This document shows, one piece after another, positions 10,034-64,000 of a stretch of DNA of 64,000 bases. The stretch is taken from assembly GCA_001781105.1 (NCBI GenBank), contig MFKV01000006.1, forward strand, positions 9,032-73,031. The letters are read 5' to 3'. A program made the position numbers and the translations under genes. The notes beneath the pieces are model-generated. The model searched no databases. It was not told the DNA's origin and was given only the letters and a program-made list of their open reading frames with translations. The first letter of the stretch is position 1; the number at the start of each line of letters is the position of its first letter. Origin of the DNA: Candidatus Kaiserbacteria bacterium RIFCSPHIGHO2_01_FULL_54_36 (GTDB lineage Bacteria > Patescibacteriota > Minisyncoccia > Phycocordibacterales > UBA2100).

Positions 10034-11125
10034 TTAGTAGTTCCCGTACGGATACTGCGGGTATTGATATGGCTGCGGGTACGGTTGCGAATATGGTTGC
10101 GGCTGCATGTAGTTGTAGTTCGGCGCGTAGTTGTAGTTATTGTTGTAATTGTTGTTGTAGTTATATGGCATCGAGACGTACCGCGAAGCATAGTTGTTGC
10201 CTTGATTTCCATCTGCGGCGTTGATCGAGACGCGGAAGGTGCCGGCGGTTGCCATGGTGAAGCGCAGCGTGTTGATCATGTGACCTCCTGGAGCAAGCGA
10301 TGCCTGAATAGGAGAGCTATAGGTATACCCGCTCTGAGTCGGGAGCTGGGCGGTGAATGTATACGCCCCAGTCGAGCTTCCGCCGATGTTACCGATGTCG
10401 AAGACGGCGGTCGCGAGTCCTGAAGCGTCCACAGTGACCGACGTAATGTGCACCGAGATGTCAGCCGGAGTGCGCGGCATAGGTGTTGGGTTCGGTGTTG
10501 GGGTCGGAGTAGGCGTCGGAGTGGGCGTAGGCGTTGGGGTACTCGGCGTCGTTGGGGTGGTGGTCCCTGTGCGAGGATCGACGATGATGGTGGCAGAGCC
10601 TTGTGCTTGCTTGGTGCTCGTTGAACTCGGCATGAATATCACCGAGACGGGGATACTCGTCGAGGTCGTTCCGATAAGGATACTCTGGAGCTTCAGCGCA
10701 TTGCTTCCCGAAGAGACAGTCGAAGCTGCGCCGCATGGTAGTGCCGCCATTACACCATTCGGACCTTCTGCGAGTATGTGAATATTGCCTTTGCACTGGT
10801 ACAAGAAGGCGTAGCTGCCTTTTTCGGTAGTCGAGTAGTTCCAGCTTACGGTGAACATATCACCCGAGATGACACGCGCAGGTGCTGTAACCTTGATCGT
10901 AGTTGAAGGCGTGGTGTTGAAAAGGGAAGAAAGCCATGGACTTCCGAGGTTTGCGATGTGGAAAAGGCCCCAGAGAATAATGACGATAAGAATGATGAAC
11001 CCGACGATCGCCAGAATGTTGGAAAGCATGCTGGTTTTCGGCTCGCGAGGCACTGGAGGAGGCACCGGGCGATTGATAGTCTGTACGGTCTCGGTCGTTT
11101 TGACTGTTTGTATCTCGTCGGACAT
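10034..11125 (-). CDS. N-terminally anchored surface protein with PT-repeat linker and Tyr/Asn/Gln/Pro-rich C-terminal tail
   Basis: Single TM (ILAIVGFIILIVIILWGLF). (TP)n linker TPTPTPTPTPTPTPNPTP. C-terminal low-complexity NYNNNYNNNYNYAPNYNYMQPQPYSQPYPQPYQYPQYPY. Confidence 0.55.
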   Translation of the reverse strand: MSDEIQTVKTTETVQTINRPVPPPVPREPKTSMLSNILAIVGFIILIVIILWGLFHIANLGSPWLSSLFNTTPSTTIKVTAPARVISGDMFTVSWNYSTTEKGSYAFLYQCKGNIHILAEGPNGVMAALPCGAASTVSSGSNALKLQSILIGTTSTSIPVSVIFMPSSTSTKQAQGSATIIVDPRTGTTTPTTPSTPTPTPTPTPTPTPTPNPTPMPRTPADISVHITSVTVDASGLATAVFDIGNIGGSSTGAYTFTAQLPTQSGYTYSSPIQASLAPGGHMINTLRFTMATAGTFRVSINAADGNQGNNYASRYVSMPYNYNNNYNNNYNYAPNYNYMQPQPYSQPYPQPYQYPQYPYGNY

Positions 11126-11199: not shown

Positions 11200-11583
11200 T
11201 CACCAGTCAAAAGAGACGCCATGTGTCCGTAGCAAAAACGTGAGATACCAGGAAGAAAAGTTGCAGATGAGCGAAAGGAGAAACGATACCTTCCAGCTCG
11301 TCTTGAGTACCATGCGGTAAAACAGTGCTTCGATAAAGAAGACAAACGTTTCGCTCACCATGAGCGATGTGTTGTATGGCCATTTGGTTATGCGGGGGAA
11401 AATGAACATGACGTACGGATTGGTAGCATACGTCGCAAACATTCCTGCGAAAAGCAAACGCAAGGAGGAAATCTCTTTGTCTTTAAACACGTATCGCACC
11501 AGGAAAAAGAGGATCGTCGTCTCAACGAGTACTGAGAAGCTTGCGATTGATATGAATTTATGGACGTAGGCAATGGATGGCAC
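11200..11583 (-). CDS. small polytopic membrane protein, hypothetical
   Basis: 127 aa. Three or four hydrophobic helices. AT-richer than neighbours. Confidence 0.4.
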   Translation of the reverse strand: MPSIAYVHKFISIASFSVLVETTILFFLVRYVFKDKEISSLRLLFAGMFATYATNPYVMFIFPRITKWPYNTSLMVSETFVFFIEALFYRMVLKTSWKVSFLLSLICNFSSWYLTFLLRTHGVSFDW

Positions 11584-11745
11584 CGGCTATTCATAGCTGT
11601 TTAGGCTGGTATGTCAACTGGCGGCCAAAACGCGGTTCATTGACCCTACAGGCGAAGGATTGTACAGTCGCCGCGAGGAAGTGGGTCGAGAGCTCTACCC
11701 ACTTGCCCTCATCAACGCATGCAGAGCATGCAGAGAAGGAGTGAA

Positions 11746-12318
11746 ATGAAGGTTCTTTCTATCGTTGCCGTTGTAGCCGCGCTCGCGGCTTTGGCGGTGA
11801 CACCGGCGCAAGCCCAAAATTCCACATGGGCCGCAGTCGCAATCAGCACGAGTCCGCTCAAGGACGCGTTCGGCTTCCAGTACCTGAAGACTTCACAGGC
11901 TGGTGCCGAGAATGACGCGATTCGGTTCTGTGAGGAACGATTCGCGAAATACAGAATCCGCGGAGCGACCTGCGCGGTGAAGTCCACGACCGACTGGGTC
12001 ATCGGCGTCTACTGCCTCAACGGCGGCAAGGTCGGCGTCGGTATCGGAGTCGGAGCGACTCCAGTGGAAGCCGCAAACGAAGCGCTGAAGGAGGCAGGTG
12101 CCTTCCAAGCGCGTCGCTGCGTATTCCAGGCCATGCGTCACGGCACCAATGCCAAGGCCACGATCGAGGGCCGTGAGTGGACCGCGACCGTCTCGTGCGG
12201 CGCCGGCACGTTTACGTTCAAGGTGAACGGTGCCGTTGCGGCGCTGAACCGCGCCCTTCGTTCCTGTGAGAACACCAATGTCTCGGCCTGCAACGTGACG
12301 GCCTTCACCGGCAGCTGA
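11746..12318 (+). CDS. secreted protein, possibly DUF4189-like
   Basis: SD GAAGGAG 7 nt upstream of the MKVLSIVAVVAALAALAVTPAQA signal peptide. Cys-containing repeats (AAVAIS…FQY…C…C) are reminiscent of DUF4189. Unverified. Confidence 0.45.
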   Translation: MKVLSIVAVVAALAALAVTPAQAQNSTWAAVAISTSPLKDAFGFQYLKTSQAGAENDAIRFCEERFAKYRIRGATCAVKSTTDWVIGVYCLNGGKVGVGIGVGATPVEAANEALKEAGAFQARRCVFQAMRHGTNAKATIEGREWTATVSCGAGTFTFKVNGAVAALNRALRSCENTNVSACNVTAFTGS

Positions 12319-12411
12319 CGCAGCCCGCGAACGTCTGGCCAGCGTTTGCCCTTACCCGGCGGTCGCGCATGCGAGCATGCGCGACCGACCGGCCTTTTTT
12401 CAATTCACACC

Positions 12412-13707
12412 ATGAACGATCAATTAAAAACTCAACTACCCAAATCCGTCGTCGGCTGGTTCGACGCTTTTTTTGGGCTTGGAATAATTCTCACCCTTTT
12501 CTTTACACTGCGCGTTGTCGCCATGAGCGACCACGTGTTTTCCATACTACTGGTTGCAGGTCTCGCACTCGTGATTGGCGCGATCGAAATAGCGCGCGCT
12601 CCGTGGCGAGGGCTTCCACCATCGCAGGCATCTAGTAATGTGATCCTCAGCCGCGCTGCGTTCAAGCTCTTGGGCTTCATCGTGACGCTCGCTGTCATCG
12701 GATTTCTCTACTGGCTCTTTCCCGAATACCACCGCACGTACTACCGCTCATTCTTCGAGTCCGTGGGGATCGTCCTACCATGGTTTATTCTGCTCGCCAT
12801 CCCGTATTTCGTGTATGTCGAGTGGCGGCTTCCGAAAGAAGAGGGCGGTATGTGGAACACAGCGCTCTTCGCAACGGCGCGCTGGAGTGAGGTCGATTGG
12901 TCATGCCTCCGGCAGCACGCACTGGGATGGCTCGTGAAAGCATTCTTCTTGCCGATCATGTTTGGCGATATCGTGAATAATATCGGCGCACTGCGCGTGG
13001 CCAATTGGGACCTCGCCTCACTTGATTTCGTACCGGTCTTCACGCTTCTTTTTGATTCACTCATCCTGCTCGAACTCGTGTTCGTCTCCGCAGGGTATGT
13101 GTTTACCTGCAGGCTTTTTGATTCGCATATCCGCAGGGTAGAGGACACCCTTTTCGGCTGGACGGTCGCGCTTATATCCTACACGCCGTTTCTCGGACTC
13201 TTTTATGTCCGATACTTTAATTACAGTGCCGACAACATTGACTGGTTGGTGTGGCTCGGCGCAAATCCCAAGCTGGTCGTCGCATGGGGCTCAGCGATCC
13301 TTGTGTTACTTTTTCTCCACCTGTGGAGTGACGCGTGTTTCGGCCTTCGCTTCTCCAACCTTACAAATCGCGGGATCATTACCAACGGGCCGTTCCGTTT
13401 TTGTAAACACCCGGCATATCTGATCAAGAATCTCCGCTGGTGGCTCGTTTCGGTCCCGTTCATTGCACTCGATCCGGTTGAGGGCTTACGGCTATCGCTA
13501 CTACTTGTGTGTGTGAATATGTTGTACACCGTGCGCGGGTATACGGAGGAGAAACTTCTCTCACGCGACCCCACGTACGTTGCGTATGCGAAGTGGATGG
13601 AAGATCACAGCCTTCTGCGGTTTTTGAAGCGGATCCCTATCTTTTCGTATGAGTGGCGACTTGCGCGGTGGCAGCGAATGTGGCCCGATGTATACCCCGG
13701 CGTATAA
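12412..13707 (+). CDS. polytopic membrane protein with C-terminal isoprenylcysteine carboxyl methyltransferase / phospholipid methyltransferase-like domain
   Basis: Many TM helices. C-terminal GPFRFCKHPAYLIKNLRWW matches the ICMT/PEMT family signature (G-x-Y/F…RHP-x-Y). Start chosen at MNDQLK; the upstream in-frame extension is unlikely. Confidence 0.5.
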   Translation: MNDQLKTQLPKSVVGWFDAFFGLGIILTLFFTLRVVAMSDHVFSILLVAGLALVIGAIEIARAPWRGLPPSQASSNVILSRAAFKLLGFIVTLAVIGFLYWLFPEYHRTYYRSFFESVGIVLPWFILLAIPYFVYVEWRLPKEEGGMWNTALFATARWSEVDWSCLRQHALGWLVKAFFLPIMFGDIVNNIGALRVANWDLASLDFVPVFTLLFDSLILLELVFVSAGYVFTCRLFDSHIRRVEDTLFGWTVALISYTPFLGLFYVRYFNYSADNIDWLVWLGANPKLVVAWGSAILVLLFLHLWSDACFGLRFSNLTNRGIITNGPFRFCKHPAYLIKNLRWWLVSVPFIALDPVEGLRLSLLLVCVNMLYTVRGYTEEKLLSRDPTYVAYAKWMEDHSLLRFLKRIPIFSYEWRLARWQRMWPDVYPGV

Positions 13708-13861: not shown

Positions 13862-15703
13862 ATGAATACAGTGCAAATGGCGTTCAGAAAATACTGGGCG
13901 ATTTTCTTTTTTATAGGTGTTGTTGCATCCGTAATCGCATTTCTTGAAATAGCACCATTGACGGTATCGTCGACTTCTCACAGTGTTTTGGGAACCCATG
14001 TCTTATATGCCGATGGTGACGGAGGAGGCGATGGTGGTGGCGATGGCGGTGGAGATGGTGGCGGAGATGGTGGCGGAGATGGCGGTGGAGATGGAGGAGG
14101 TGATGGCGGTGGAGATGGTGGCGGAGATGGCGGAGGCGACGGAGGCGGTGATGGCGGAGGCGACGGAGGCGGTGACGGAGGAGGCGATGGTGGTGGTGAT
14201 GGCGGAGGTTGTGTCAGAAACTGCATCCCTGTGACGCCCCCTGGCTGCATCATTATCATCAAAGAAACGTTCGATGCGCAAGGCAATCCTATTACACCAG
14301 TCGCGCAGTTTACGTTTCGGCTCGACAATTCGCGCACTGCCCAAAACGACGCTTCGGGGAGAGTGACATTCACGAATGTGTCTGCGGGCTTCCATTCGGT
14401 CTCGGAGATCGTGCCGTCTGGCTGGACTCTTTTCTCGGTCACCCCACAAAACGGCTCCGTGTTTGTGAGCTCTGGGGTGAATTGCGCAACGGTAGTCTTC
14501 AAAAACAGGCAAACTGTCCCACCACAGAGCTGCATCACGGTGATCAAAGAAACCTACGATACACAGGGCAATCCTATTACACCGGTCGCGCAATTTACGT
14601 TCAGTCTCGACGGGGTTCGCACGATACAAAACGACGGCTCAGGTCGCGCAACGTTCAACAACGTGTTGCCCGGCAGCCATCAAATTACAGAGCAGGTCCC
14701 CCTTGGCTGGACGCTTTTTTCGGTGACGCCAACAAACGGGATCGTCCAGGTTACTTCTGGCACCAATTGTGCGGCGGTTATTTTCAAGAACAGGCAAACG
14801 ATCCCGCAATGTCCACCCGGCCAGGTCGGCACGTACCCAAATTGTCACGAGCAGCAATGTCCACCCGGTCAGATCGGTACCTATCCCAATTGCAGCATTC
14901 CACAGTGCCCACCGGGACAGACGGGAGTCTATCCCAACTGTATTCCCAACCAGTGTCCTCCGGGCCAGATCGGGACCTACCCCAATTGCAGCATTCCACA
15001 GTGCCCACCTGGCCAAACGGGGACGTATCCGTACTGCATCCCAAATCAGTGTCCGAGCGGCTACACGGGTACCTATCCAAATTGTTACCCGCCGCAGTGC
15101 CCTTCAGGCTACATAGGCACGTATCCAAGTTGTTACCCACCTCAACAAAATCTATACTGCACGCTCACCGCAAGCATCACCTCGATATACAATGGCCAGG
15201 CAGTCTATCTCTCCTGGACTTCGACGGGCGCTACCTCGGCATCCCTCGATTCCGTGGGCCAAGTCGGCGTATTCGGCTCGTACACGATCTACCCGCAACA
15301 CTCACGCGTATACACGCTCACCGTATACGATTCACAGGGTCGCTCCAACAATTGCCAGGTCTCGATCTCGGTGAACCCGGCGTACATCCCGCCTCCTCCG
15401 TACTTCCCGCCACCGCCACAATATATTCCACCACCACCTCAGTACATCCCGCCTCCGCAATATATCCCGCCGCCTACTTCCCAGATCTCTCTAGTACAGA
15501 TCCCATACACCGGGTTCGACTTCGGACCGGTAGGGAATGCGATCTACTGGCTCGCCATGCTCCTCTTCGCCTTTGCGCTGACCTACCTACTCCTGTACTA
15601 CCAAGGTGGGTTCTGGGTTCTTATGGTCGTCGCGATCCGATACCAGGCGCAACTGTGGGAGTTGGGACTGCAAAGAATAGGCCTCTCCTCAAGGACGCAA
15701 TAG
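13862..15703 (+). CDS. large surface protein: signal anchor, (DGGG)x26 repeat, two CnaB-type domains, eight CPPGQxGTYPNC repeats, conserved C-terminal module, PPPPQYI repeats, IPYTG sortase-type sorting signal
   Basis: Domains read directly from the translation. CnaB-like …RTAQNDASGRVTFTNVSAGFHSVSEIVPSGWTL… appears twice. The C-terminus SLVQIPYTGFDFGPVGNAIYWLAMLLFAFALTYLLLYY is an LPXTG-like motif plus a hydrophobic segment. A sortase gene lies downstream. Confidence 0.7.
   Translation: MNTVQMAFRKYWAIFFFIGVVASVIAFLEIAPLTVSSTSHSVLGTHVLYADGDGGGDGGGDGGGDGGGDGGGDGGGDGGGDGGGDGGGDGGGDGGGDGGGDGGGDGGGDGGGDGGGCVRNCIPVTPPGCIIIIKETFDAQGNPITPVAQFTFRLDNSRTAQNDASGRVTFTNVSAGFHSVSEIVPSGWTLFSVTPQNGSVFVSSGVNCATVVFKNRQTVPPQSCITVIKETYDTQGNPITPVAQFTFSLDGVRTIQNDGSGRATFNNVLPGSHQITEQVPLGWTLFSVTPTNGIVQVTSGTNCAAVIFKNRQTIPQCPPGQVGTYPNCHEQQCPPGQIGTYPNCSIPQCPPGQTGVYPNCIPNQCPPGQIGTYPNCSIPQCPPGQTGTYPYCIPNQCPSGYTGTYPNCYPPQCPSGYIGTYPSCYPPQQNLYCTLTASITSIYNGQAVYLSWTSTGATSASLDSVGQVGVFGSYTIYPQHSRVYTLTVYDSQGRSNNCQVSISVNPAYIPPPPYFPPPPQYIPPPPQYIPPPQYIPPPTSQISLVQIPYTGFDFGPVGNAIYWLAMLLFAFALTYLLLYYQGGFWVLMVVAIRYQAQLWELGLQRIGLSSRTQ
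14012..14208 (+). repeat. 12-bp tandem repeat (GATGGNGGNGGN)x~16 encoding (DGGG)n
   Basis: Direct reading of near-identical 12-nt units with synonymous third-position variation. Confidence 0.85.
14806..15140 (+). repeat. 39-bp tandem coding repeat x8 (QCPPGQIGTYPNCSIP)
   Basis: Eight consecutive units with conserved Cys spacing. Confidence 0.8.
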
Positions 15704-15718
15704 GGTAAAGCAGGGGGG

Positions 15719-16441
15719 TTGACATTGGGCCATTTATGGTGTATTATCTCGCCCTCTATGAGTTTTGACCATACGTCTCCGCAGACTCCTCCAAAAGGGG
15801 TGTACTTGGCGAGTGTCATCGTCGTCTTTTTCTGTACGCTCAGCGTCGCCGACTCTGTGGGCTTCGTGCCGTACTACATTGATGGCACACTCCCGACCGC
15901 TTCTGCCGATCCTGTGACCGTTGATTCAGTGATGCTTTCAAATTTGCCGCAGCTTGGCGAAGACTCTACCGGAACGGTTGAAATTCCTACAGGAGAAGTG
16001 GTGCTCCCCGAGCGGCTCAAGATCCCAGCGATCTCGCTCGATCTTCCCGTACAAAATCCCAACACCCGCGACACCAAGGCGCTCGACCTCATCATCCAAA
16101 AAGGCCCCGCGCGCTACGTGGACTCAGCAAAGCTCGGGGAGAAGGGCAACATGATCATCTACGCACACTCTTCCGTGTACCCAGTATTGCGCAACCAAAT
16201 GTGGAAGGCGTTCAATCGCATTCACGAGCTCCAGGTCGGCGATCCGATCACGCTCGAGGCAGGAGGCAAGCAGTATGTCTACACCGTGAGCGCCGTGCGA
16301 CAAGTGGATACTGCCGACACGATCATTGACCTCTCGCCCACGCAAGGCACGAAGCTCACGCTCGTTACCTGCGACATCGCGACCGGCAAAACTGCCCGCT
16401 TCATCGTCGAGGCAGACTTCGTCGGCATTGTCGGTCAATAA
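15719..16441 (+). CDS. sortase family transpeptidase
   Basis: N-terminal TM anchor. Catalytic LTLVTC motif, with Arg 13 residues downstream (TARFIVEA) and a His in IIYAHSS. Sits directly downstream of an IPYTG substrate gene. Confidence 0.7.
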   Translation: MTLGHLWCIISPSMSFDHTSPQTPPKGVYLASVIVVFFCTLSVADSVGFVPYYIDGTLPTASADPVTVDSVMLSNLPQLGEDSTGTVEIPTGEVVLPERLKIPAISLDLPVQNPNTRDTKALDLIIQKGPARYVDSAKLGEKGNMIIYAHSSVYPVLRNQMWKAFNRIHELQVGDPITLEAGGKQYVYTVSAVRQVDTADTIIDLSPTQGTKLTLVTCDIATGKTARFIVEADFVGIVGQ

Positions 16442-16447
16442 GAAAAT

Positions 16448-17122
16448 ATGTCACGCGCTAAAACACTTATCTCAATCCTTATCGTTATGGGAATCGCCTC
16501 GGCTCCCGTTGTCGAAGCGGCGACCTATTATGAGATCGGCACACCTGTCTCGATCGGACAACCTGCCTCGTATGCGTATCCCTTTTCGTACGGCATGCCC
16601 GCAACGGCAGGGTATGCCACACCGGCTGGATACAGTCAGACAGTGGGTTTCCCCGCATCGGCAGGATATCCAGCGGCAGTAGGCTATGGCGTCTCAGTTG
16701 GTTCTCCCGTGAGCGTCGGGCATCCAGTTTCTGTTGGCCGTCCCGTAAACGTCGGCTATCCAGTCAACGTGGGCTATCCCGTGAATGTCGGATACCCGGT
16801 CAATATCGGCTATCCGGTAAACGTCGGTCGCCCTGTAGATATAGGTCGGCCAGTTGACGTTGCTCATCCAGTGGACATTGGACGTGTCGTTGATATCGGT
16901 CATGTCGTTGAGATCGCGCACGCAGTAGATCTCTACGGCCCCGGGAAACTTTTCGCACTTGTAAGCATAGGGGAGGGGGTAGCTGTAGGTCGTGCTGTCG
17001 ATATTGCGCACTCGGTCACGATCGCTCACGCCGTCACGATCGCCCGCCCGGTAGATATCGCCCACGCTGTCGAGGTAGGGTACGCTGTACCGGTCGGCCG
17101 CGGCTACACTTTAGCGAAATAA
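16448..17122 (+). CDS. secreted protein made of ~25 tandem hexapeptide repeats (x-P-V-x-V/I-G)
   Basis: Signal peptide MSRAKTLISILIVMGIASAPVVEA. Repeats GYPVNVGYPVNVGYPVNIGYPVNVGRPVDIGRPVDV… The antisense ORF 16694-17065 is a repeat artefact. Confidence 0.6.
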   Translation: MSRAKTLISILIVMGIASAPVVEAATYYEIGTPVSIGQPASYAYPFSYGMPATAGYATPAGYSQTVGFPASAGYPAAVGYGVSVGSPVSVGHPVSVGRPVNVGYPVNVGYPVNVGYPVNIGYPVNVGRPVDIGRPVDVAHPVDIGRVVDIGHVVEIAHAVDLYGPGKLFALVSIGEGVAVGRAVDIAHSVTIAHAVTIARPVDIAHAVEVGYAVPVGRGYTLAK

Positions 17123-17148: not shown

Positions 17149-17177
17149 TTGACGAAAGGGCATATTTGATGTATTAT
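17149..17177 (+). promoter_or_regulatory. sigma70-like promoter TTGACG-N17-TATTAT
   Basis: Hexamers and spacing read directly. 61 nt upstream of the 17239 CDS. Confidence 0.5.
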
Positions 17178-17679: not shown

Positions 17680-17707
17680 TTGACATTTGCAGATAAAATG
17701 ATATAAT
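17680..17707 (+). promoter_or_regulatory. consensus sigma70 promoter TTGACA-N16-TATAAT
   Basis: Perfect -35 and -10 hexamers. Followed by SD AGGAGG and the 17775 CDS. Confidence 0.6.
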
Positions 17708-18915: not shown

Positions 18916-18943
18916 TTGACATTTGGATAATAAGTGCTACAAT
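18916..18943 (+). promoter_or_regulatory. sigma70 promoter TTGACA-N16-TACAAT
   Basis: Read directly. Drives a ~200-nt leader before the 19145 CDS. Confidence 0.55.
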
Positions 18944-19574: not shown

Positions 19575-19738
19575 CAATTTCTCGATACGAGCCAATTCCT
19601 TGGATCGCGCCGAGCTCTCGCAAGAGAGCTATGTAAAAATCGTGAAGTACTTGACAGGCGAGAAATATCAAGTATAATCGCGCCGTTCAGCTAATTAACA
19701 ATATTATTAGTTTTTGAGACATTAATTAATACACGATT

Positions 19739-21193
19739 ATGACAAATGCATCGATAAAGAATACGTTTGCAACTCTCGCTGTTGTCGCGCTTGCGATGGC
19801 GGTTTCTTTCGGCACATTTGCCACAATCGTGCGTGCGGACGATGATCTTGGCTACTATGGCACGTCTGAAAACTACTATGGCACGGACTCCAGTGACCTC
19901 GGCTACTACGGTACGTCCGATAACCTTGGGTATTGGGGAACCGACTCAGGTGATCTCGGTTACTACGGCACGTCCGACAACCTCGGCTATTTTGGCACTG
20001 ATTCTGGTGATCTTGGTTACTACGGCACCTCGGATAATCTCGGGTACTACGGTACTTCCGATAACGATCTCGGCTACTACGGCACGTCCGACAACCTCGG
20101 CTACTACGGAACTCAAGAAGAGGTTTTCGGCACGGATGTCTACGGTACTGATGTCATCGAAGAGCACGGCGTCGGATACTCGTATCACGAATATGAGAAC
20201 GATTTCTCGCAGAGCTACTCTTCGCCTTCCTGTTACTCTTGTTCCTCTTCTTCAAAGCCATTCAGCTTCTCGGCTCCTTCTACCTACTACCCGCCGAGCC
20301 GTCCTCAGAGCTATCCGGCTCCGCAGCCTCAGTCACAACCTCGTCCGCAGCAATTCCCGGTCTTCTATCCGCAGCAACAGCAGCAGCAACAGCAGCAACA
20401 GCAACAGGGAAGCGCGCAGCCGATCAACATCAACAACGTCAACAACAATAACAACGTCAACCAGAACACCAACACGAATCCGGTGACCGTGACGACGGTT
20501 ATACCTGTGACGCAGGCACCGATTACGTATCCGGTACAGTACGTCTACCCGCAACAGCCTGTCTATCCGACTCCTCCTGCCCCGAACCTCTACTGTGTCA
20601 TCTCTGTCTCGCCAAGCACGATCTCGAATGGTCAGGCAGCGTACCTCACGTGGAGCTCGACAGGTGCTACGAGCGCATGGCTCTCTGACGGAATCGGCAA
20701 TGTCTCGATCAACGGCTCACTCGCAGTTCGCCCGAACAACTCGAAGACCTATACACTTACGGTCTCTGGCTACGGCGGTACTCGTACCTGCAACGTCTAC
20801 GTCAGCGTCAACAATGCGTATCCGTACGTCTCACTCTCGCAGATCCCATACACAGGCTTTACCCTGGGGCCGCTCGGCAACGCGCTCTACTGGCTCTCGA
20901 TGCTCAGCTTCGCAGCCGCTGGTGCCTACCTCTTGGTTTACTACAAAGGCGGTGCATTCACGCTCGCCTCTGCAATGATCGGCCAGCGCTCGGTCAATCG
21001 CTCTGAAATAGAAGTGCCTGCAGGAGACGTAGAACCTATCGAAACTCCCGTAGAACCTACTCCGAGCCCGGTCCAGATGGAAATGCTTGAGAATCTCCCA
21101 ATCGCACCGGCCAGCTTCCGCTCCATCGACAGCATGAAGCTCATGCACGGTACCGAGGGCAGCGCTCCGCGCATCGTGATCACTCGCAACTAA
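19739..21193 (+). CDS. second IPYTG-type surface protein: signal peptide, (DLGYYGTSDN)x~10 repeats, poly-Q, Asn-rich tract, conserved C-terminal module, IPYTG signal
   Basis: C-terminal ~110 aa align with the 13862 protein (LYC..S.S.I.NGQA.YL.W.STGATSA … SL.QIPYTGF..GP.GNA.YWL.ML.FA…YLL.YY.GG). Low-complexity repeats are read directly. Confidence 0.65.
   Translation: MTNASIKNTFATLAVVALAMAVSFGTFATIVRADDDLGYYGTSENYYGTDSSDLGYYGTSDNLGYWGTDSGDLGYYGTSDNLGYFGTDSGDLGYYGTSDNLGYYGTSDNDLGYYGTSDNLGYYGTQEEVFGTDVYGTDVIEEHGVGYSYHEYENDFSQSYSSPSCYSCSSSSKPFSFSAPSTYYPPSRPQSYPAPQPQSQPRPQQFPVFYPQQQQQQQQQQQQGSAQPININNVNNNNNVNQNTNTNPVTVTTVIPVTQAPITYPVQYVYPQQPVYPTPPAPNLYCVISVSPSTISNGQAAYLTWSSTGATSAWLSDGIGNVSINGSLAVRPNNSKTYTLTVSGYGGTRTCNVYVSVNNAYPYVSLSQIPYTGFTLGPLGNALYWLSMLSFAAAGAYLLVYYKGGAFTLASAMIGQRSVNRSEIEVPAGDVEPIETPVEPTPSPVQMEMLENLPIAPASFRSIDSMKLMHGTEGSAPRIVITRN
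19838..20115 (+). repeat. 30-bp tandem coding repeat (DLGYYGTSDN)
   Basis: About nine or ten consecutive units. Confidence 0.75.
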
Positions 21194-28019: not shown

Positions 28020-28934
28020 ATGGCAAATAGGCACCTCGCACGATCAGTCGTATTACAAGTCCTTTTTGAGCGGGACTCTACGGAAGGGAAATTGAGCAAC
28101 GAGCAGGCGTTCGGCCGCCTTGTCGATTACGGCAAGGAATTCGGCACGCGAGACAGTGACATGCCATTCATGAGGGAACTCCTCCAAACGGCGATCGCCA
28201 AGCAAAAAGAAATAGATGAAGTAATCGTGCGCGCAGCGCCCGAGTGGCCGATAGATCGTATTGCAGCGATCGACCGCAACATCCTGCGGCTCGGGCTCAC
28301 AGAGCTCCTCTTTGCCGATCGCGCGCAGGTACCGGCAAAAGTCGCCATCAACGAAGCCATCGAGCTCGCAAAATCATTCGGAAGCGCCTCGTCGGGCAGG
28401 TTCGTGAACGGCGTCTTAGGCGCTGTCTATGTAGAGCTCGGCGAGCCGGGAAAGAATGAGGGTGGTGCGCGCAAGCAAGGAGGAGAGCGGCTAGCAAAAA
28501 TGCCCACAGAACATCTGGCTGGCGCCGTCGTGTATGCGCGCTCGGAAGGCGAGACGTATCTCGCATTCGTCCACGATATTTTTGGGCACTGGACCATCTC
28601 GAAGGGCAAGATCGAAGAAGGGGAAGATGTCAAAGCGGGCGCAATACGGGAGATACAAGAAGAGATGGGGCTCGATATCAAGATCGTCCAAGAGCTCGGT
28701 GTCAACGAATACATCGCCAACGATTCCAAGGTGGAGGGTGGTAAGAAACGCAAGCGCGTGAGCTACTTCCTCGCCGAATCCCCTTTCACCGAGCTCAAAC
28801 TCGGTTCATCGGGAGGCCTCGATGATGCGCAGTGGTTCCCGCTTTCGGCAGTAGGGGACCTCAATTTCTATGATGATACTCTGAAAATAATTGTGCCGGC
28901 GATCAATGCGCTCGCTCGCGGCGAAAAACGCTAG
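28020..28934 (+). CDS. nusB: NusB antitermination factor fused to a C-terminal Nudix hydrolase domain
   Basis: N-terminal ~140 aa is NusB. C-terminus carries the canonical Nudix box GKIEEGEDVKAGAIREIQEEMGL. Confidence 0.75.
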   Translation: MANRHLARSVVLQVLFERDSTEGKLSNEQAFGRLVDYGKEFGTRDSDMPFMRELLQTAIAKQKEIDEVIVRAAPEWPIDRIAAIDRNILRLGLTELLFADRAQVPAKVAINEAIELAKSFGSASSGRFVNGVLGAVYVELGEPGKNEGGARKQGGERLAKMPTEHLAGAVVYARSEGETYLAFVHDIFGHWTISKGKIEEGEDVKAGAIREIQEEMGLDIKIVQELGVNEYIANDSKVEGGKKRKRVSYFLAESPFTELKLGSSGGLDDAQWFPLSAVGDLNFYDDTLKIIVPAINALARGEKR

Positions 28935-32726: not shown

Positions 32727-33179
32727 AGAAGGCCAGTGGTTTCCGGAGAGGAAACGCGACGCTGGCCCTCCTTGGCAAGATTTCAGGCATGGTTTGCCCC
32801 CATGGTTACGGTGCGGACTTCTCGGATTGCCCTTAATGCAGTCTCAATCTCGACGGCATCATGCGCGGTCGTAACCGCAAATTTTGCCGCCGCACGCAAG
32901 TTGCCAGCCCTCGGGAACGACAATATTTGCTCGACGCTCCCAAACTTGCCGAGCGCATACCGTATTCTCCGAACGCCGTTCTTGTCAAAGTCGCCTGTGA
33001 CCGTGACAAGCAATCTTGTACACTGGCTCGTGCTGTCCACTTTACTCACCTCCTTCACTACCCGCATTCAATCAAATATGCAGAAAAGGGCAAACGACAT
33101 TCGCGGGGATGAGGCCGGCCCCGCCATGGCGGGGCCGGCATTGATTTTTGGGGCTTTTTCTAGTAGAGTCTCCGGACAT

Positions 33180-33671
33180 ATGTTGAAAATCAGAATGCAA
33201 CGCACCGGGCGGATCAATACGCCTTCTTACCGCATTGTTGTCGTCGAGCATACCGCGAGCCCTACAGCAGGTAGGTTCGTCGATAAGGTCGGCACCTACG
33301 ACCCGAAGAGCAAGGCGCGCAACCTCAATGTGGAGCGAATCAAGCACTGGATGTCGGTAGGCGCGAAGCCCTCGGCGACCGTCCACAATATGCTTGTTTC
33401 CCTCGGCGTCATTAACGCAAAGAAAATCAACGTCCTTCCCGCCTACAAGGCTCCCGCCGAAGCGGCTGCGGCAGAACAAGAAGCTGAGGCGGCAAAAGCT
33501 GCGGAACAAAAAGCAAAGGAGGAAGCTAAAGCTGCGCACGAGGCTTCGGTAGAAGCGGAGAAAGCACAAAAGGAAGCTGAAGCAGCAGCCCCCGCCCCAG
33601 CAGAGGAGGCACCGAAGGAGGAAACGAAGGCAGAGCCGGAAGCGGTCGCTGCGGAAGCAAAAGCGGAGTAG
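33180..33671 (+). CDS. rpsP: 30S ribosomal protein S16 with Ala/Glu/Lys-rich C-terminal extension
   Basis: MLKIRMQRTGRINTPSYRIVVVEH…GTYDP matches S16. The tail is low-complexity AEAAKAAEQKAKEE. Upstream in-frame ORF sequence (32736-33179) is not protein-like. Confidence 0.8.
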   Translation: MLKIRMQRTGRINTPSYRIVVVEHTASPTAGRFVDKVGTYDPKSKARNLNVERIKHWMSVGAKPSATVHNMLVSLGVINAKKINVLPAYKAPAEAAAAEQEAEAAKAAEQKAKEEAKAAHEASVEAEKAQKEAEAAAPAPAEEAPKEETKAEPEAVAAEAKAE

Positions 33672-51802: not shown

Positions 51803-52294
51803 TTATCTGCTTCTCACCTTGAGTTTCGTTTGTCTCTTTTTATTAATTTTGGGCAAGCGGATCATGAGAATGCCGTGCTTCTCGGAGGCCTCGGCGATAT
51901 CTACGTCGACTTCTTCCGGGAGAAGGATGGTGCGGGAGAATGAGCCCCAGTACAACTCGCGCTGGAAATAGTTGTCTTCTTCTACTTCGCGCTCGTCTTC
52001 GCGCTGGCCTGAGATGGTGAGCATCTCTCGGGTGAGGGAAATGTCTATCGAGGTCGGCTGCACGCCGGCGACGAGCGCTTTGACGACGATCGCATCCGGT
52101 GTCTGATAAATATCCACTGCTAGTTCACCTTGCGGCTCCTCGGCCGCCCAGTTCTCGTCTCTCGTATTGATGTGCGCATGGCGCTCGGGGCCTTCGCCTT
52201 CGAATACTGCCGGTATGCCGGTATCGTCGAAATCGTAGTCGTTGCCTCCGCCCGTGAGGCGGGAGAAAAAGCCAGGTTTCTTCAGAAGCGCCAT
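51803..52294 (-). CDS. Hsp20/alpha-crystallin family small heat-shock protein
   Basis: Alpha-crystallin domain (…DIYQTPDAIVVKALVAGV…LTISGQRE…ILLPEEVD…GILMIRLPK). Start chosen at MALLKKPG. The 175-aa upstream extension is rejected. Confidence 0.75.
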   Translation of the reverse strand: MALLKKPGFFSRLTGGGNDYDFDDTGIPAVFEGEGPERHAHINTRDENWAAEEPQGELAVDIYQTPDAIVVKALVAGVQPTSIDISLTREMLTISGQREDEREVEEDNYFQRELYWGSFSRTILLPEEVDVDIAEASEKHGILMIRLPKINKKRQTKLKVRSR

Positions 52295-53025
52295 AGTTTT
52301 TGTTTGACGACGGGGTGTATCCGTTTGATATATTCTAACACGGCTAGGAGGGCGATAAGGCCAATCCAGACGAGCCCGAATGTGCGCATCAAATGGCTCT
52401 CGGGTGTATTCAGTATAAGGAAGTTGAAAGTGCTGTGCAAAAGGGATGCGAGGATAACTCCCATGAGCACATACCAGCGCTTCGCGGAGCGTGACTTGTA
52501 GAAAGAAAGCGCCAAAAAGACGCCTATTACGGCCGATGACAGCACATGCAAGAGGGTAGCACCCACGAAACGCAGATTGCCCGTGAGGATGGTTTGAAGT
52601 ACCGTATTGCCGGAGAGGGGCGAGAGGAGAAACAGCGTGTTTTCCGCCGCCGCGAAGCCGAGCGCGACCGTTACCATATAGATGACAGGATCGATAGGCT
52701 CGTCGTCTTCGCGGCGGCGCAAGACCGTGAGCTTCGCCATAACGAACTTGACGATCTCCTCGAGTGCAGACCAGACGATGAAGGTGAGGGTGGTGACACC
52801 GAGCGCGGCTGGGATCCACAGACTTTGATCTGAAATGAGTGTCTGCGCCATTTTCTCCAGTGGTATCACGATGCCGACGGCCACCATGCCCGCGAGGAAG
52901 GCGAGCGCTATCAAACGCCGTGGCTCTGGATGCACGCTATCCTCTCGGCGCCAAAACCACAGCCACGCAAGCGCGGGCAAAATCCCGCCTGCCATTGCCG
53001 CGATTATCGGCTCGAATTCACCCAT
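52282..53025 (-). CDS. PrsW-family intramembrane metalloprotease
   Basis: Polytopic, with the conserved EExxK (EEIVKF) and FAAAENTLF motifs of PrsW/YpdC proteases. Confidence 0.6.
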   Translation of the reverse strand: MGEFEPIIAAMAGGILPALAWLWFWRREDSVHPEPRRLIALAFLAGMVAVGIVIPLEKMAQTLISDQSLWIPAALGVTTLTFIVWSALEEIVKFVMAKLTVLRRREDDEPIDPVIYMVTVALGFAAAENTLFLLSPLSGNTVLQTILTGNLRFVGATLLHVLSSAVIGVFLALSFYKSRSAKRWYVLMGVILASLLHSTFNFLILNTPESHLMRTFGLVWIGLIALLAVLEYIKRIHPVVKQKLWRF

Positions 53026-61837: not shown

Positions 61838-62203
61838 CCTCGGACATTTCCGCTAGGGCTACTCGCGCCTAGATGTCTAGGTTTGGCGCTTCTCCTCGCC
61901 ATTGCCCGCCTGCGGGCGGGTGGCTCGGGCGCCATGCTGTTTGGGGGAAGGAAGGAATCCTCCCCCCAGCTTCGGTCTCCTCCTCGCAGTGGTTTGCTAG
62001 AGTATTCAGTGCTTTATTTCGGTTAGTGGTTTGCGTGTGTCTTTGCCTTCGTTTTATGTGCCTTCGGAGTCCGCCCTCGCACAACCCCCTTCCTCGTTTT
62101 CAAAATAGCTTTCGTGGTGTCGCTTTCGCTTTGGATTTCTGTATTGCAAGATAACGGCGGCGCTCATCCAAGGGCATGGACGCCCTAGCGGAAATGTCCG
62201 AGG
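61838..62203. mobile_element. MITE-like unit bounded by perfect 22-bp inverted repeats (CCTCGGACATTTCCGCTAGGGC)
   Basis: IR copies at 61838-61859 and 62182-62203 are exact reverse complements. Internal sequence is non-coding. Confidence 0.5.
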
Positions 62204-62288
62204 CGCAAATACCTCTGTGCTTGCCCCTCCCACCCTGTGCGCGCACATCCCGCCCGCGAAGATTAGAAGGGATCGCGGGCGGGGCTCC

Positions 62289-63515: not shown

Positions 63516-63517
63516 AA

Positions 63518-63967
63518 TTAAATCTTGCCAGAATTTACCAATGCAGGGGTAAGAAAATAAACTTGTTGTGTTGGTGATCCGCGCTCCACCTTTATCTCGG
63601 AATAGAATTTATTGCCGTCTGAATTTTCGTATTCAAATCGCACCACGGTCGAAATTGATGGTTGAATCCTTTTTTCGTCGTGAAAATTTATCATCCTTGC
63701 AGTACCCGGACTTTTAACTCTTATGTAGTCTATGGGACCATTGAAATTCCATATCTCCGTAGGCACGTCTCGAAACATTTCTGTAGTTTCTTTAATATTC
63801 TTTGCGGTGTCAGTCCCCACATTCCGAAGAAATAAACCCGCATTGTCTGGTGTTTCTATTACTAATTTTGGAGTTTTGCTTGATAAGTAAGCTTTGTACG
63901 CATAACAAGCGGCGGCAATAGCGGCGATGGCAGAAACGATTCCTATAGTTAAATTTACATAGTCCAT
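63518..63967 (-). CDS. membrane-anchored hypothetical protein, translationally coupled upstream partner of the nuclease
   Basis: 149 aa with N-terminal TM (LTIGIVSAIAAIAAACYAY). Its stop is 2 nt from the nuclease ATG. Same low GC. Confidence 0.45.
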   Translation of the reverse strand: MDYVNLTIGIVSAIAAIAAACYAYKAYLSSKTPKLVIETPDNAGLFLRNVGTDTAKNIKETTEMFRDVPTEIWNFNGPIDYIRVKSPGTARMINFHDEKRIQPSISTVVRFEYENSDGNKFYSEIKVERGSPTQQVYFLTPALVNSGKI

Positions 63968-64000
63968 GTTTTTATTTTCCAGATTTCCGACGATTATCGT

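What the first reader, a model, noticed from the sequence alone, without database searches (positions are those of the whole stretch)
13862..16441. Sortase with an IPYTG-type substrate carrying CnaB-like domains
The 15719-16441 product carries the sortase catalytic Cys motif LTLVTC with the downstream Arg, plus an N-terminal membrane anchor. The gene immediately upstream ends in SLVQIPYTGF followed by a hydrophobic helix and a basic tail. IPxTG sorting signals are known for pilin-type sortase substrates. The two CnaB-type domains (…SGRVTFTNVSAGFHSVSEIVPSGWTL…) are typical of sortase-anchored adhesins. In a reduced genome this is a notable investment in covalent surface display.
Basis: partly seen in the sequence, partly recalled or inferred. 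Interest (0 to 1): 0.65.

Follow-up and report, generated by a model that had tools for sequence, protein, structure and literature searches.

The report
Sortase and its PYTG-tagged surface proteins
A small-genome Patescibacteria (Kaiserbacteria-like) bacterium encodes a surface-protein "stapling" enzyme (sortase) next to proteins carrying a strictly conserved IPYTG tag, and this pairing recurs across distant relatives, pointing to an undescribed lineage-specific version of Gram-positive-style surface anchoring.

Summary
ORF 15758-16441 is a genuine sortase. Its real start is ATG 15758, because the "TTG" at 15719 is the -35 box of its promoter. It passes the Pfam cut-off (PF04203, 78.7 bits against 26.6), has an invariant His137/Cys205/Arg214 triad and a sortase fold, but passes no curated class model (A-F, GN).

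The upstream gene p1 (13862-15703) carries two CnaB-fold domains (AF2 pLDDT 94, with top PDB matches UafA, SdrD-B, CnaB2 and pilins). It ends in SLVQ-IPYTG-FDFGP plus a membrane helix. A second gene, p2 (19739-21193), has the same C-terminal module.

In homologues P, T and G are invariant and Y nearly so. A sortase lies upstream on the same strand in 31 of 34 Kaiserbacteria-type loci. The same is true in 40 of 43 loci of a distant subfamily whose sortases are only about 34% identical.

The unexpected part is the tail. Most family members, including p2, continue 80-400 aa past the helix into conserved cytoplasmic tails, unlike a classical LPXTG signal. Neither Pfam, NCBIfam nor the searchable literature describes the module.

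Verdict: a real sortase-substrate system and a new variant of a known kind. Cleavage and the acceptor molecule are untested.

The parts
13862..15703 (+). p1: candidate sortase substrate, 613 aa (signal/anchor, (GGGD)n, 2x CnaB-fold, Cys-rich repeats, PKD/Ig-like domain, Pro-rich stalk, IPYTG module)
   Evidence: ORF. Domain map. Orthologue directly upstream of the sortase in L059, and another IPYTG protein in the same position in L005.
13862..13969 (+). p1 N-terminal hydrophobic signal/anchor (MNTVQMAFRKYWAIFFFIGVVASVIAFLEIAPLTVS)
   Evidence: Sequence inspection; inferred Sec signal.
14006..14209 (+). (GGGD)x17 acidic glycine repeat
   Evidence: Tandem Repeats Finder: period 12/24/48, 78-83% matches. 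The same repeat is in the L059 orthologue.
14234..14515 (+). CnaB-fold (prealbumin-like) domain 1, aa 125-218. Candidate isopeptide residues K134/E182/N215 and Cys pair C129/C208.
   Evidence: AF2 pLDDT 94.1. Foldseek PDB top hits: UafA, SdrD B, CnaB2, GBS52, RrgB, BcpA. Pfam SpaA/SdrD_B sub-threshold.
14525..14809 (+). CnaB-fold domain 2, aa 222-316 (70% identical to domain 1)
   Evidence: Alignment A5. Pfam SpaA_2/SpaA_4/SpaA sub-threshold.
14810..15142 (+). about 7 copies of a 16-aa Cys-rich repeat, QCPPGQxGTYPNC
   Evidence: TRF period 48/96. The same repeat occurs in IPYTG proteins of L059 (11 regex matches), L063, L073 and L078. No Pfam hit.
15143..15385 (+). PKD/Ig-like domain shared with p2 and widespread as a tandem repeat in large proteins
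   Evidence: 45% identity to p2. Weak K319L-like_PKD/BiPBP_C hits. PF22352 at 38.9 bits in homologue P0242. Dominates the 14,625 profile hits.
15386..15481 (+). Pro-rich stalk (PPPQYI repeats)
   Evidence: Sequence. Role as an envelope-spanning spacer is inferred.
15488..15529 (+). Extended sorting-type motif SLVQ-IPYTG-FDFGP (IPYTG = 15500-15514)
   Evidence: P, T and G are invariant, Y is 0.61-0.94, and the upstream Y[VI]xL[ST]Q is conserved in all tail classes.
15530..15700 (+). Membrane helix region (aa 557-592) and Arg-containing tail (aa 593-613). 62 aa follow the motif.
15719..15747 (+). Promoter-like site TTGACA-17-TATTAT; the ATG lies 10 nt after the -10 box (near-leaderless sortase mRNA)
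   Evidence: 11 of 12 matches.
15758..16441 (+). Sortase, 227 aa: TM helix aa 13-33, disordered linker, catalytic barrel from about aa 81 to 227. His137 (16166-16168), Cys205 (16370-16372), Arg214 (16397-16399).
19739..21193 (+). p2: the conserved PYTG partner, 484 aa. Signal peptide, low-complexity region, PKD/Ig-like domain, SLSQ-IPYTG-FTLGP (20843-20857), TM, 111-aa cytoplasmic tail with NLPIA (within ENLPIA, 21089-21106) and the C-terminal motif IDSMKLMHGTEGSAPRIVITRN (21125-21190).
16448..17122 (+). Secreted hexapeptide-repeat (left-handed beta-helix-like) protein directly downstream of the sortase; possible member of the unit
   Evidence: Sub-threshold LbH/LpxA/LpxD repeat hits. A homologue was found in 23 related loci, directly downstream of the sortase in all six loci whose gene order was printed and that had a hit. 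Not found in the distant loci.
10034..11125 (-). N-terminally anchored two-Ig-like-domain surface protein, divergent neighbour of the sortase in relatives; possible member of the unit
   Evidence: Homologue found in 42 Kaiserbacteria-type loci and 9 distant loci. It lies divergently next to the sortase in the loci whose gene order was printed.

Best explanation
This is a lineage-specific sortase system of Kaiserbacteria-like Patescibacteria.

SHOWN: A membrane-anchored cysteine transpeptidase (15758-16441) sits beside type-I surface proteins. Their ectodomains end in the motif Y[VI]xL[ST]Q-[IVL]PYTG, placed directly before the membrane helix.

INFERRED MECHANISM:
- p1 and p2 are exported by Sec and held in the membrane by the C-terminal helix.
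- The sortase Cys205 attacks the Thr-Gly bond of IPYTG and forms a thioacyl intermediate.
- The ectodomain is then transferred to an amine acceptor in the Gram-positive-like envelope, most likely a peptidoglycan precursor.
- This covalently displays the CnaB-fold, Cys-repeat and PKD-like adhesin domains on a proline-rich stalk.

p1 is a variable accessory cargo. p2 is the conserved, syntenic, dedicated target. Its membrane helix and conserved cytoplasmic tail (NLPxA ... PRIVITR) would stay behind as a stub. The conservation of that stub implies a function of its own, either before cleavage (targeting or positioning of the precursor) or after it (signalling). This last step is speculative.
For: Enzyme:
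- PF04203 at 78.7 bits against a cut-off of 26.6.
- Triad invariant in 42 homologues and aligned to solved sortases.
- AF2 core pLDDT 80-95, with Foldseek probability 1.0 to SrtA/SrtE/SrtC structures.

Motif:
- 78 of 84 homologues are exactly IPYTG.
- In 355 non-redundant xPxTG-plus-hydrophobic-segment sites from the proteins and six-frame ORFs in hand (including about a dozen spurious ORFs, and selected on PxTG so that P, T and G are invariant by construction), Y is conserved at 0.61-0.94. The region after Gly is free to vary in short-tail members. That is the pattern expected of an enzyme recognition site.
- About 20 members have classical-length signals (39-48 aa: motif, TM helix, basic end).

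Topology: N-terminal signal sequences, the motif on the outer face of a single TM helix, and Lys/Arg directly after the helix.

Linkage:
- A sortase lies upstream on the same strand in 31 of 34 Kaiserbacteria-type loci with at least 9 kb of upstream sequence.
- The same holds in 40 of 43 loci of a distant PYTGF[DE]AGP subfamily, 13 of them with a 96-303 nt gap.
- The sortases of that subfamily are only 29-41% identical to this one.
- A p1 orthologue lies directly upstream of the sortase in L059.

Cargo:
- The CnaB fold is typical of sortase substrates.
- The same domain occurs in a homologue ending in LPQTG-TM-KRFFF and in one anchored by SLH domains.

CPR context: a Gram-positive-like envelope and widespread sortases are already documented (PMC6744442).
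Against: - There is no biochemical evidence. Cleavage, the scissile bond and the acceptor are all inferred.
- Most family members, including p2, carry 80-400 aa of conserved cytoplasmic sequence after the helix. A disposable sorting signal should not have this. The motif could instead be a structural juxtamembrane element.
- The curated LPXTG-anchor models do not recognise the signal. TIGR01167 reaches at best 8.4 bits against a cut-off of 15.9, and PF00746 gives no hit.
- The sortase passes no class-specific model, so substrate specificity cannot be borrowed from a characterised class.
- Exceptions to linkage exist: L002 has a sortase with no PYTG gene within 10 kb, and L098, L109 and L113 have none of the sortase.
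- Part of the Kaiserbacteria linkage could be inherited synteny, since gyrB and thrS flank the block.
Confidence: 0.65

Rival explanations
1. Pilus-type polymerisation. The sortase joins IPYTG proteins head-to-tail through a lysine of the next subunit, building a covalent fibre as class C sortases do, rather than anchoring single proteins to the wall.
For: - Ile at the first motif position and CnaB-fold domains are typical of Gram-positive pilins. The top fold matches include GBS52, RrgB, BcpA, SpaD and Cpa.
- The substrate gene is adjacent to the sortase.
- A conserved Lys-Asn (VFKNRQ) sits in the last strand of each CnaB-fold domain.
Against: - Class C HMM scores 38.1 bits against a cut-off of 160.
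- There is no conserved DP[FWY] lid. The region before the barrel is variable and disordered.
- Only an N-terminal anchor is present, with no C-terminal TM.
- The window holds one sortase and no cluster of pilin genes.
- The conserved partner p2 has no CnaB domain. The p1 orthologue in L059 lacks the CnaB domains altogether.
- No YPKN pilin motif is present.
Confidence: 0.1
2. The PYTG motif is not cleaved. It is a structural juxtamembrane element of a family of bitopic receptor-like or adhesin proteins whose cytoplasmic domains are the functional output. The sortase is a neighbour for another reason, for example because it processes other proteins or uses the PYTG protein as a scaffold.
For: - Conserved cytoplasmic tails of 80-400 aa fall into distinct classes (PRIVITR; EDGWVVxNKERI; AxDxSY...KLAL) and share an NLPxA motif.
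- Extended conservation on both sides of the pentapeptide in long-tail members (FDxGPxGN...YW) goes beyond what sortases are known to need.
- Curated LPXTG models give no hit.
Against: - In the calls made on members of the family, P, T and G do not vary and Y varies little, in every tail class. This includes members with classical short tails, where the downstream region is free to vary.
- The motif matches the sortase consensus exactly and sits at the position where sortases act.
- Near-obligate same-strand adjacency to a sortase holds across clades that are 34% identical.
- No other candidate substrate motif is present in the window.
Confidence: 0.13
3. Sortase as a releasing or signalling protease. 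Cleavage at PYTG mainly serves to shed the ectodomain or to liberate the membrane/cytoplasmic stub as a signal, a form of regulated proteolysis, rather than to attach the protein covalently to the wall.
For: - The cytoplasmic tail is conserved, which implies the stub matters.
- The pairing is dedicated, one sortase to one target.
- From memory and not checked here: sortase-cleaved C-terminal peptides are sensed by a membrane signalling system in streptococci.
Against: - Short-tail members with no cytoplasmic domain use the same motif.
- The Pro-rich stalk and the adhesin-type ectodomains fit display rather than shedding.
- Known sortases resolve the acyl-enzyme intermediate by transpeptidation. 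Hydrolysis is a slow side reaction (established knowledge of sortase A).
Confidence: 0.1

Closest known systems
Housekeeping sortases with an N-terminal anchor (class E SrtE of Streptomyces/Thermobifida; class A-type SrtA of Actinomyces oris, streptococci, B. anthracis) and their LAXTG/LPXTG substrates
   Same: - Sortase fold and His-Cys-Arg triad, TLxTC motif and a single N-terminal membrane anchor.
- Best NCBIfam class score is class E.
- Best structural matches are 5utt, 3rcc, 9m6n, 5cuw and 2kw8.
- One sortase in the window serves more than one candidate substrate.
- The substrates are type-I proteins with the motif directly before the TM helix.
   Different: - Fails every class cut-off (class E 50.9 bits against 160).
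- The motif is [IVL]PYTG with a fixed Tyr and a conserved upstream Y[VI]xL[ST]Q.
- The curated LPXTG anchor models miss it.
- Most substrates have long conserved cytoplasmic tails.
Class C pilus sortases with IPxTG/LPxTG pilins built of CnaB/CnaA domains (e.g. RrgB, GBS52, BcpA, SpaA)
   Same: - Ile at the first motif position.
- CnaB-fold domains in the cargo.
- Substrate gene adjacent to the sortase gene.
   Different: - No lid motif and no C-terminal anchor.
- Class C HMM at 38.1 bits against a cut-off of 160.
- No pilin (YPKN) motif and no multi-pilin operon.
- The conserved partner p2 lacks CnaB domains.
Proteobacterial dedicated sortase system (class GN 'marine' sortase, TIGR03784, with a single adjacent target protein)
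   Same: The logic of one sortase gene paired with one conserved adjacent target gene, in a lineage outside the classical Gram-positives. The description of the proteobacterial system is from memory of the NCBIfam/TIGRFAMs annotation.
   Different: - TIGR03784 scores 24.5 bits against a cut-off of 158.
- Different motif and different target architecture.
- Here, extra non-adjacent substrates share the signal.
CnaB / prealbumin-like 'SpaA' domains of MSCRAMMs and pilins (PF05738, PF17802, PF17210)
   Same: - Predicted seven- to eight-strand beta-sandwich matching UafA, SdrD-B, CnaB2, GBS52 and RrgB.
- Lys in the first strand, Glu in the middle and Asn in the last strand are conserved, as in isopeptide-forming domains.
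   Different: - Below the Pfam cut-offs, with no PF05738 hit.
- Only two sequence homologues were found by the indexed search.
- An extra conserved Cys pair is present.
- The isopeptide geometry was not checked.

Membership tests
Sortase superfamily (PF04203 / TIGR01076) | HMM score above the curated cut-off | tested here: met
   PF04203 78.7 bits against 26.6. TIGR01076 42.4 bits against 39.35.
Sortase superfamily (PF04203 / TIGR01076) | Catalytic His, Cys (TLxTC) and Arg | tested here: met
   H137, C205 and R214 are invariant in 42 homologues. They align to AHS/GHN, TLITC and R of 2kw8 and 5go6. They are also kept in the 34%-identical clade.
Sortase superfamily (PF04203 / TIGR01076) | Eight-stranded beta-barrel sortase fold | tested here: met
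   AF2 core pLDDT 80-95. Foldseek: 127 PDB hits at E <= 1e-3, and all 50 listed hits are sortases, with probability 1.0 and TMt up to 0.79.
Sortase superfamily (PF04203 / TIGR01076) | Transpeptidase activity on a sorting motif | not testable with these tools
   Needs an enzyme assay.
Sortase class E | NCBIfam NF033747 above cut-off | tested here: not met
   50.9 bits against 160. The class E Tyr that selects LAXTG was not examined.
Sortase class C (pilus) | NF033745 above cut-off; lid (DP[FWY]) over the active site; additional C-terminal membrane anchor | tested here: not met
   38.1 bits against 160. The pre-barrel region is variable and disordered, with no conserved lid motif. The protein ends 13 residues after Arg214.
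Sortase classes D, F, GN | Class HMM above cut-off | tested here: not met
   D 30.5 against 165; F 29.5 against 166; GN 24.5 against 158.
LPXTG cell-wall sorting signal (TIGR01167 / PF00746) | Pentapeptide [LI]PxTG | tested here: met
   IPYTG at aa 547-551 of p1 and aa 369-373 of p2. Conserved in homologues.
LPXTG cell-wall sorting signal (TIGR01167 / PF00746) | Hydrophobic membrane segment right after the motif, and an N-terminal signal peptide | tested here: met
   Sequence inspection.
LPXTG cell-wall sorting signal (TIGR01167 / PF00746) | Protein ends in a short basic tail within roughly 35-40 aa of the motif | tested here: not met
   62 aa follow the motif in p1 and 111 aa in p2. Most homologues have 80-400 aa. 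About 20 family members do have 39-48 aa.
LPXTG cell-wall sorting signal (TIGR01167 / PF00746) | Match to the curated anchor HMMs | tested here: not met
   No hit for p1 or p2 even at E <= 10. The best hit in the family is 8.4 bits against a cut-off of 15.9.
LPXTG cell-wall sorting signal (TIGR01167 / PF00746) | Cleavage between Thr and Gly and amide linkage to the wall | not testable with these tools
   Needs biochemistry or proteomics.
CnaB / prealbumin-like SpaA domains | Pfam HMM above cut-off | tested here: not met
   SpaA 20.4 against 23.1; SpaA_2 17.2 against 25; SdrD_B 14.3 against 29.7; no PF05738 hit.
CnaB / prealbumin-like SpaA domains | CnaB-type beta-sandwich fold | tested here: met
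   AF2 pLDDT 94.1 and pTM 0.84. Foldseek top hits 3irp, 10ps, 8bdw, 3phs and 2x9y, with probability 1.0 and TMq 0.6-0.74.
CnaB / prealbumin-like SpaA domains | Intramolecular Lys-Asn/Asp isopeptide with catalytic Glu/Asp | tested here: inconclusive
   K134, E182 and N215 are conserved at the expected strands. Side-chain distances in the model could not be read.

The most novel reading that the evidence does not exclude
The PYTG module marks a dedicated sortase system that is widespread in Parcubacteria-type Patescibacteria. Its conserved target is a bitopic protein, not a disposable-signal precursor.

Under this reading, sortase cleavage splits the protein into two parts:
- a wall-linked ectodomain;
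- a membrane stub whose conserved cytoplasmic domain (NLPxA plus the PRIVITR, EDGWVVxNKERI or AxDxSY...KLAL classes) has its own role.

That role would be to position surface assembly at a defined site or to report it to the cytoplasm. It would be a sortase-coupled transmembrane device with no described counterpart.
Probability: 0.25. Interest if true: 0.75.

Novelty: new variant of a known kind. Interest (0 to 1): 0.55.

Why it matters
Patescibacteria (CPR) are thought to live attached to other cells, and how they build their surface is largely unknown.

- Sortases were known to be common in CPR (PMC6744442). Their substrates and recognition motif in Parcubacteria-type lineages are not described in Pfam, NCBIfam or the searchable literature, so annotation pipelines miss these proteins.
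- A defined motif, Y[VI]xL[ST]Q-[IVL]PYTG, gives a direct way to list the covalently displayed surface proteome (candidate host-attachment adhesins) of these uncultured organisms. It also gives a peptide for testing the enzyme.
- The conserved cytoplasmic tails behind the motif are unexpected for a sorting signal. They may reveal a link between surface assembly and the cell interior.

Tried and rejected
- TTG 15719 as the sortase start: rejected. It is the -35 box of a promoter-like site, and homologues start at the Met of 15758.
- Assignment to a sortase class with NCBIfam: no class model passes. Foldseek does not separate classes A, E and C either.
- Curated LPXTG-anchor HMMs on the isolated C-termini at E <= 10: no usable hit.
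- Literature searches for IPYTG, for PYTG plus sortase, and for sortase plus Patescibacteria plus sorting signal: nothing relevant.
- Exhaustive profile search with the whole module. The 14,625 hits are dominated by the PKD/Ig-like domain, so the count does not measure the PYTG module. Only the top 149 sequences were inspected (77 have the module).
- Third indexed homologue search, on the CnaB-fold region: only two hits. These were enough for a confident AF2 model but not for a family survey.
- Small genes lying between the sortase and the PYTG gene in distant loci. They are secreted, Cys-rich and not alike, so no conserved third component was found there. The hexapeptide-repeat protein downstream of the window's sortase was found only in loci of the Kaiserbacteria-type set.
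- Overlapping alternative-frame ORFs inside p1 (e.g. 14209-15708) are artefacts of the repeats.
- Side-chain geometry of the triad and of the candidate isopeptide could not be read from the models.


Full report
ORGANISM AND SETTING

The window is a housekeeping-rich stretch (pheT, gyrB, thrS, dnaE, nusB, rnc, smc, rpoB, rpoC, dnaG, rpoD, leuS) of a Patescibacteria genome. The closest relatives of the genes studied are MAGs labelled Candidatus Kaiserbacteria, Paceibacterota or Parcubacteria. One of them is a complete 859-kb chromosome.

THE SORTASE

The ORF listed from TTG 15719 hits Pfam Sortase (PF04203) at 78.7 bits against a cut-off of 26.6. It hits the generic TIGR01076 at 42.4 against 39.35.

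Start codon:
- The stretch 15719-15747 reads TTGACA-17 nt-TATTAT, and an ATG follows 10 nt later at 15758.
- All 41 aligned homologues begin at the equivalent Met.
- The gene is therefore 15758-16441 (227 aa) and probably has its own promoter and an almost leaderless mRNA.

Catalytic residues and fold:
- Numbered from that Met, His137 (AHSS), Cys205 (LTLVTC) and Arg214 (ARF) are invariant in the 42-sequence alignment.
- They align with the catalytic residues of B. anthracis SrtA (2kw8) and Streptomyces SrtE (5go6).
- An AlphaFold2 model (mean pLDDT 74.8, barrel 80-95) shows an N-terminal helix (aa 13-33), a disordered linker and a beta-barrel.
- Foldseek against the PDB returns 127 hits at E <= 1e-3. 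All 50 listed are sortases of classes A, E, C and D, with probability 1.0.

Class: no class-specific NCBIfam model comes close to its cut-off (E 50.9/160, C 38.1/160, D 30.5/165, F 29.5/166, GN 24.5/158). There is no conserved lid and no C-terminal anchor. The enzyme is a sortase, but not a member of a characterised class.

Distribution: more than 750 homologues exist. The best 120 are 54-100% identical, and where named they are Patescibacteria, with one evident mislabel.

THE UPSTREAM GENE p1 (13862-15703, 613 aa)

In order it contains:
- an N-terminal hydrophobic signal;
- a (GGGD)x17 repeat;
- two 70%-identical beta-sandwich domains;
- about seven copies of a 16-aa repeat QCPPGQxGTYPNC;
- a PKD/Ig-like domain;
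- a proline-rich stalk (PPPQYI repeats);
- the string SLVQ-IPYTG-FDFGP;
- a hydrophobic stretch and an Arg-containing end.

- Pfam does not meet it. SpaA scores 20.4 against 23.1, the other prealbumin-fold families are weaker, and PF05738 gives no hit.
- A four-sequence AlphaFold2 model of aa 125-218 is very confident (pLDDT 94.1).
- Its best PDB matches are CnaB-type domains of LPXTG proteins and pilins: UafA, SdrD B, L. plantarum CnaB2, GBS52, RrgB, BcpA and Cpa.
- Lys134, Glu182 and Asn215 are conserved where an isopeptide triad would lie, as is a Cys129/Cys208 pair. I could not check the geometry.
- The only two sequence homologues found for this domain are also surface proteins. One ends in LPQTG-TM-KRFFF, the other in SLH domains.

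A SECOND CARRIER OF THE MOTIF

A scan of all six frames finds only two [LIVM]PxTG motifs in ORFs of at least 100 aa, and both are IPYTG.
- The second is in p2 (19739-21193, 484 aa).
- Its C-terminal part (PKD/Ig-like domain, SLSQ-IPYTG-FTLGP, helix) aligns with p1 at 45% identity over 191 alignment columns, E 2e-34.

CONSERVATION OF THE MOTIF

A profile of the two modules finds 84 proteins. Of these, 78 have exactly IPYTG and three more have V/L/TPYTG.

I then took 355 non-redundant xPxTG sites followed by a hydrophobic segment, drawn from all proteins and six-frame ORFs in hand. About a dozen are spurious ORFs. The sites were selected on P-x-T-G, so the invariance of P, T and G in this set follows from the selection.
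- Tyr is conserved at 0.61-0.94.
- The upstream Y[VI]xL[ST]Q is conserved in every class.
- The downstream FDxGPxGN..YW is conserved only in members with long tails. In short-tail members the sequence after Gly varies freely.

Strongest constraint on the pentapeptide itself, whatever follows, is what an enzyme recognition site would show.

A classical sorting signal ends about 35 aa after the motif.
- Here only about 20 members do so, with 39-48 aa and a basic end.
- p1 has 62 aa and p2 has 111 aa.
- About 85% of the close homologues continue through a variable linker containing NLPxA to a conserved extreme C-terminus...DSMxVxHSKxGxAPRIVI[ST]R. p2 has it (IDSMKLMHGTEGSAPRIVITRN). p1 does not.
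- Among the top 149 representatives of an exhaustive profile search, 77 carry [IVL]PYTG[FL][DE]xGP plus a helix, with tails of 29 to 407 aa.
- These tails fall into further conserved classes, ending ...EDGWVVxNKERIxxLL or ...AxDxSYxxxxTGAKLALTRAL / AIDGTYxDEAAAVKxAIxKA.
- Neither Pfam nor NCBIfam has a model for the module or the tails. Full-text searches for IPYTG, or for PYTG with sortase, find nothing relevant.

LINKAGE TO THE SORTASE

Close relatives. A scan of species-representative genomes for QIPYTGFD gave 98 confirmed sites, all in Patescibacteria MAGs.
- In 31 of 34 loci with at least 9 kb upstream of the PRIVITR-type gene, a sortase lies upstream on the same strand.
- The loci whose gene order was printed share the arrangement: anchored Ig-like protein (-) | sortase | hexapeptide-repeat secreted protein | variable genes | p2-type gene. 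Homologues of the first two neighbours were found in 42 and 23 loci respectively.
- An IPYTG gene directly upstream of the sortase, as in the window, recurs in L005 and L059. The L059 protein is a clear p1 orthologue with (GGGD)n, at least 11 Cys repeats, an Ig-like domain, a Pro stalk and IPYTG, but without CnaB domains.
- CnaB-fold domains occur in other IPYTG proteins (L049, L068, L080).

Because this could be inherited synteny, I tested a distant subfamily.

Distant subfamily. A metagenome scan used the PYTGF[DE]AG / long-tail module.
- 40 of 43 loci with a complete gene and at least 1.5 kb upstream have a sortase upstream on the same strand.
- 13 of these have a gap of 96-303 nt. Most of the rest have one or two small unrelated secreted genes in between.
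- Those sortases are only 29-41% (mean 34%) identical to the window's enzyme. They keep GHS...LTL[AV]TC...DR[FY]IVEA.

The pairing is therefore maintained over deep divergence, which argues for function.

Exceptions: L002 has a sortase with no PYTG gene within 10 kb, and three distant loci have no sortase.

MECHANISM

Shown:
- a sortase with an intact active site and an N-terminal anchor;
- type-I proteins with an invariant sortase-type pentapeptide on the outer face of their membrane helix;
- tight and ancient gene linkage;
- cargo domains of the kind sortases usually display.

Inferred:
- Cys205 cleaves Thr-Gly of IPYTG.
- The ectodomain is transferred to an amine in a Gram-positive-like envelope. 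CPR are thought to have one (PMC6744442).
- The proline stalk acts as a spacer.

Speculative: the conserved helix-plus-tail stub of p2-type proteins acts in targeting or signalling.

I put 0.65 on sortase processing with covalent display. The rivals are an uncleaved structural motif (0.13), pilus-like polymerisation (0.10) and shedding or signalling without anchoring (0.10).

COMPARISON AND NOVELTY

It works like a Gram-positive housekeeping sortase system, and in gene logic like a dedicated one-sortase/one-target system. It is a member of the sortase superfamily but of no defined class. Its signal fails two defining features of the LPXTG anchor family: the short terminal tail and the HMM match.

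Sortases in CPR were already known. What appears to be new:
- the motif;
- its extended conservation;
- the dedicated pairing;
- the conserved cytoplasmic tails.

I rate it a new variant of a known kind, with interest 0.55.

Noticed in passing
window 16448-17122 (+): Signal-peptide protein made almost entirely of hexapeptide repeats (GxPVxV; sub-threshold LbH/LpxA/LpxD hits). It starts 7 nt after the sortase stop. A homologue was found in 23 Kaiserbacteria-type loci, directly downstream of the sortase in all six loci whose gene order was printed and that had a hit, but not in the distant loci. A secreted left-handed beta-helix next to a sortase is unusual. It could be a fibre or an acceptor.
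   Followed up: partly
window 10034-11125 (-): N-terminally anchored protein with two Ig/CARDB-like domains, a TP-rich linker and a Tyr/Asn/Pro-rich end. It is a divergent neighbour of the sortase in relatives (gyrB | this gene (-) | sortase). Homologues occur in 42 Kaiserbacteria-type loci and 9 of the distant sortase loci. It may belong to the system.
   Followed up: partly
window 12346-13707 (+); L059 7361-8704: Multi-pass membrane protein with an ICMT-family (isoprenylcysteine carboxyl methyltransferase-like) domain (28.4 bits against a cut-off of 24), directly upstream of p1. A homologue also lies next to the p1 orthologue in L059.
   Followed up: partly
window 15719-15747, 17149-17177, 17680-17707, 18916-18943, 19651-19678: Near-perfect sigma-70 consensus promoter-like sites (two at 12 of 12) precede almost every gene of this block. 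Ten were found against 4.1 +/- 1.9 expected. The sortase ATG lies 10 nt after its -10 box, suggesting leaderless translation.
   Followed up: partly
p2 tail, window 21089-21190; P0206-P0353: The cytoplasmic tails of PYTG proteins fall into several conserved classes (PRIVITR; EDGWVVxNKERI with a ~70-aa helical domain; AxDxSY...KLALTRAL). They share a short NLPxA motif. None has a Pfam or NCBIfam model.
   Followed up: partly
window 14006-14209 and 14810-15142; L059, L063, L073, L078: Two unusual repeats in p1: (GGGD)x17 and a 16-aa two-cysteine repeat QCPPGQxGTYPNC (7 copies here, at least 11 in L059). The Cys repeat recurs only in IPYTG proteins of the loci examined and has no Pfam match.
   Followed up: partly
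P0354, P0355 (homologues of p1 aa 125-316): The same CnaB-fold domain is found with a classical LPQTG-TM-KRFFF signal plus a DUF11 domain in one protein, and with three SLH domains in another. The same display domain therefore uses three different anchoring modes.
   Followed up: partly
window 62289-63515 (-), region 62001-64000: Shedu SduA C-terminal nuclease domain (PF14082, 89.7 bits) in a stretch where GC drops to 0.40 from about 0.54. This is probably a small acquired defence island at the window edge.
   Followed up: no
window 28020-28934 (+): A single ORF combining a NusB domain (aa 7-136) and a NUDIX hydrolase domain (aa 186-279).
   Followed up: no
window 32736-33671 (+) and 51803-52819 (-): The ribosomal protein S16 domain sits at aa 156-213 of a 311-aa ORF, and the HSP20 domain at aa 236-331 of a 338-aa ORF. 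Either the starts are over-called or both proteins carry long N-terminal extensions.
   Followed up: no
window 11719-12318 (+): Secreted DUF4189 protein (30.7 bits against a cut-off of 25), together with a small membrane protein (11200-11583, -). Both are inserted between the conserved neighbour and p1 and are absent from all related loci examined.
   Followed up: no
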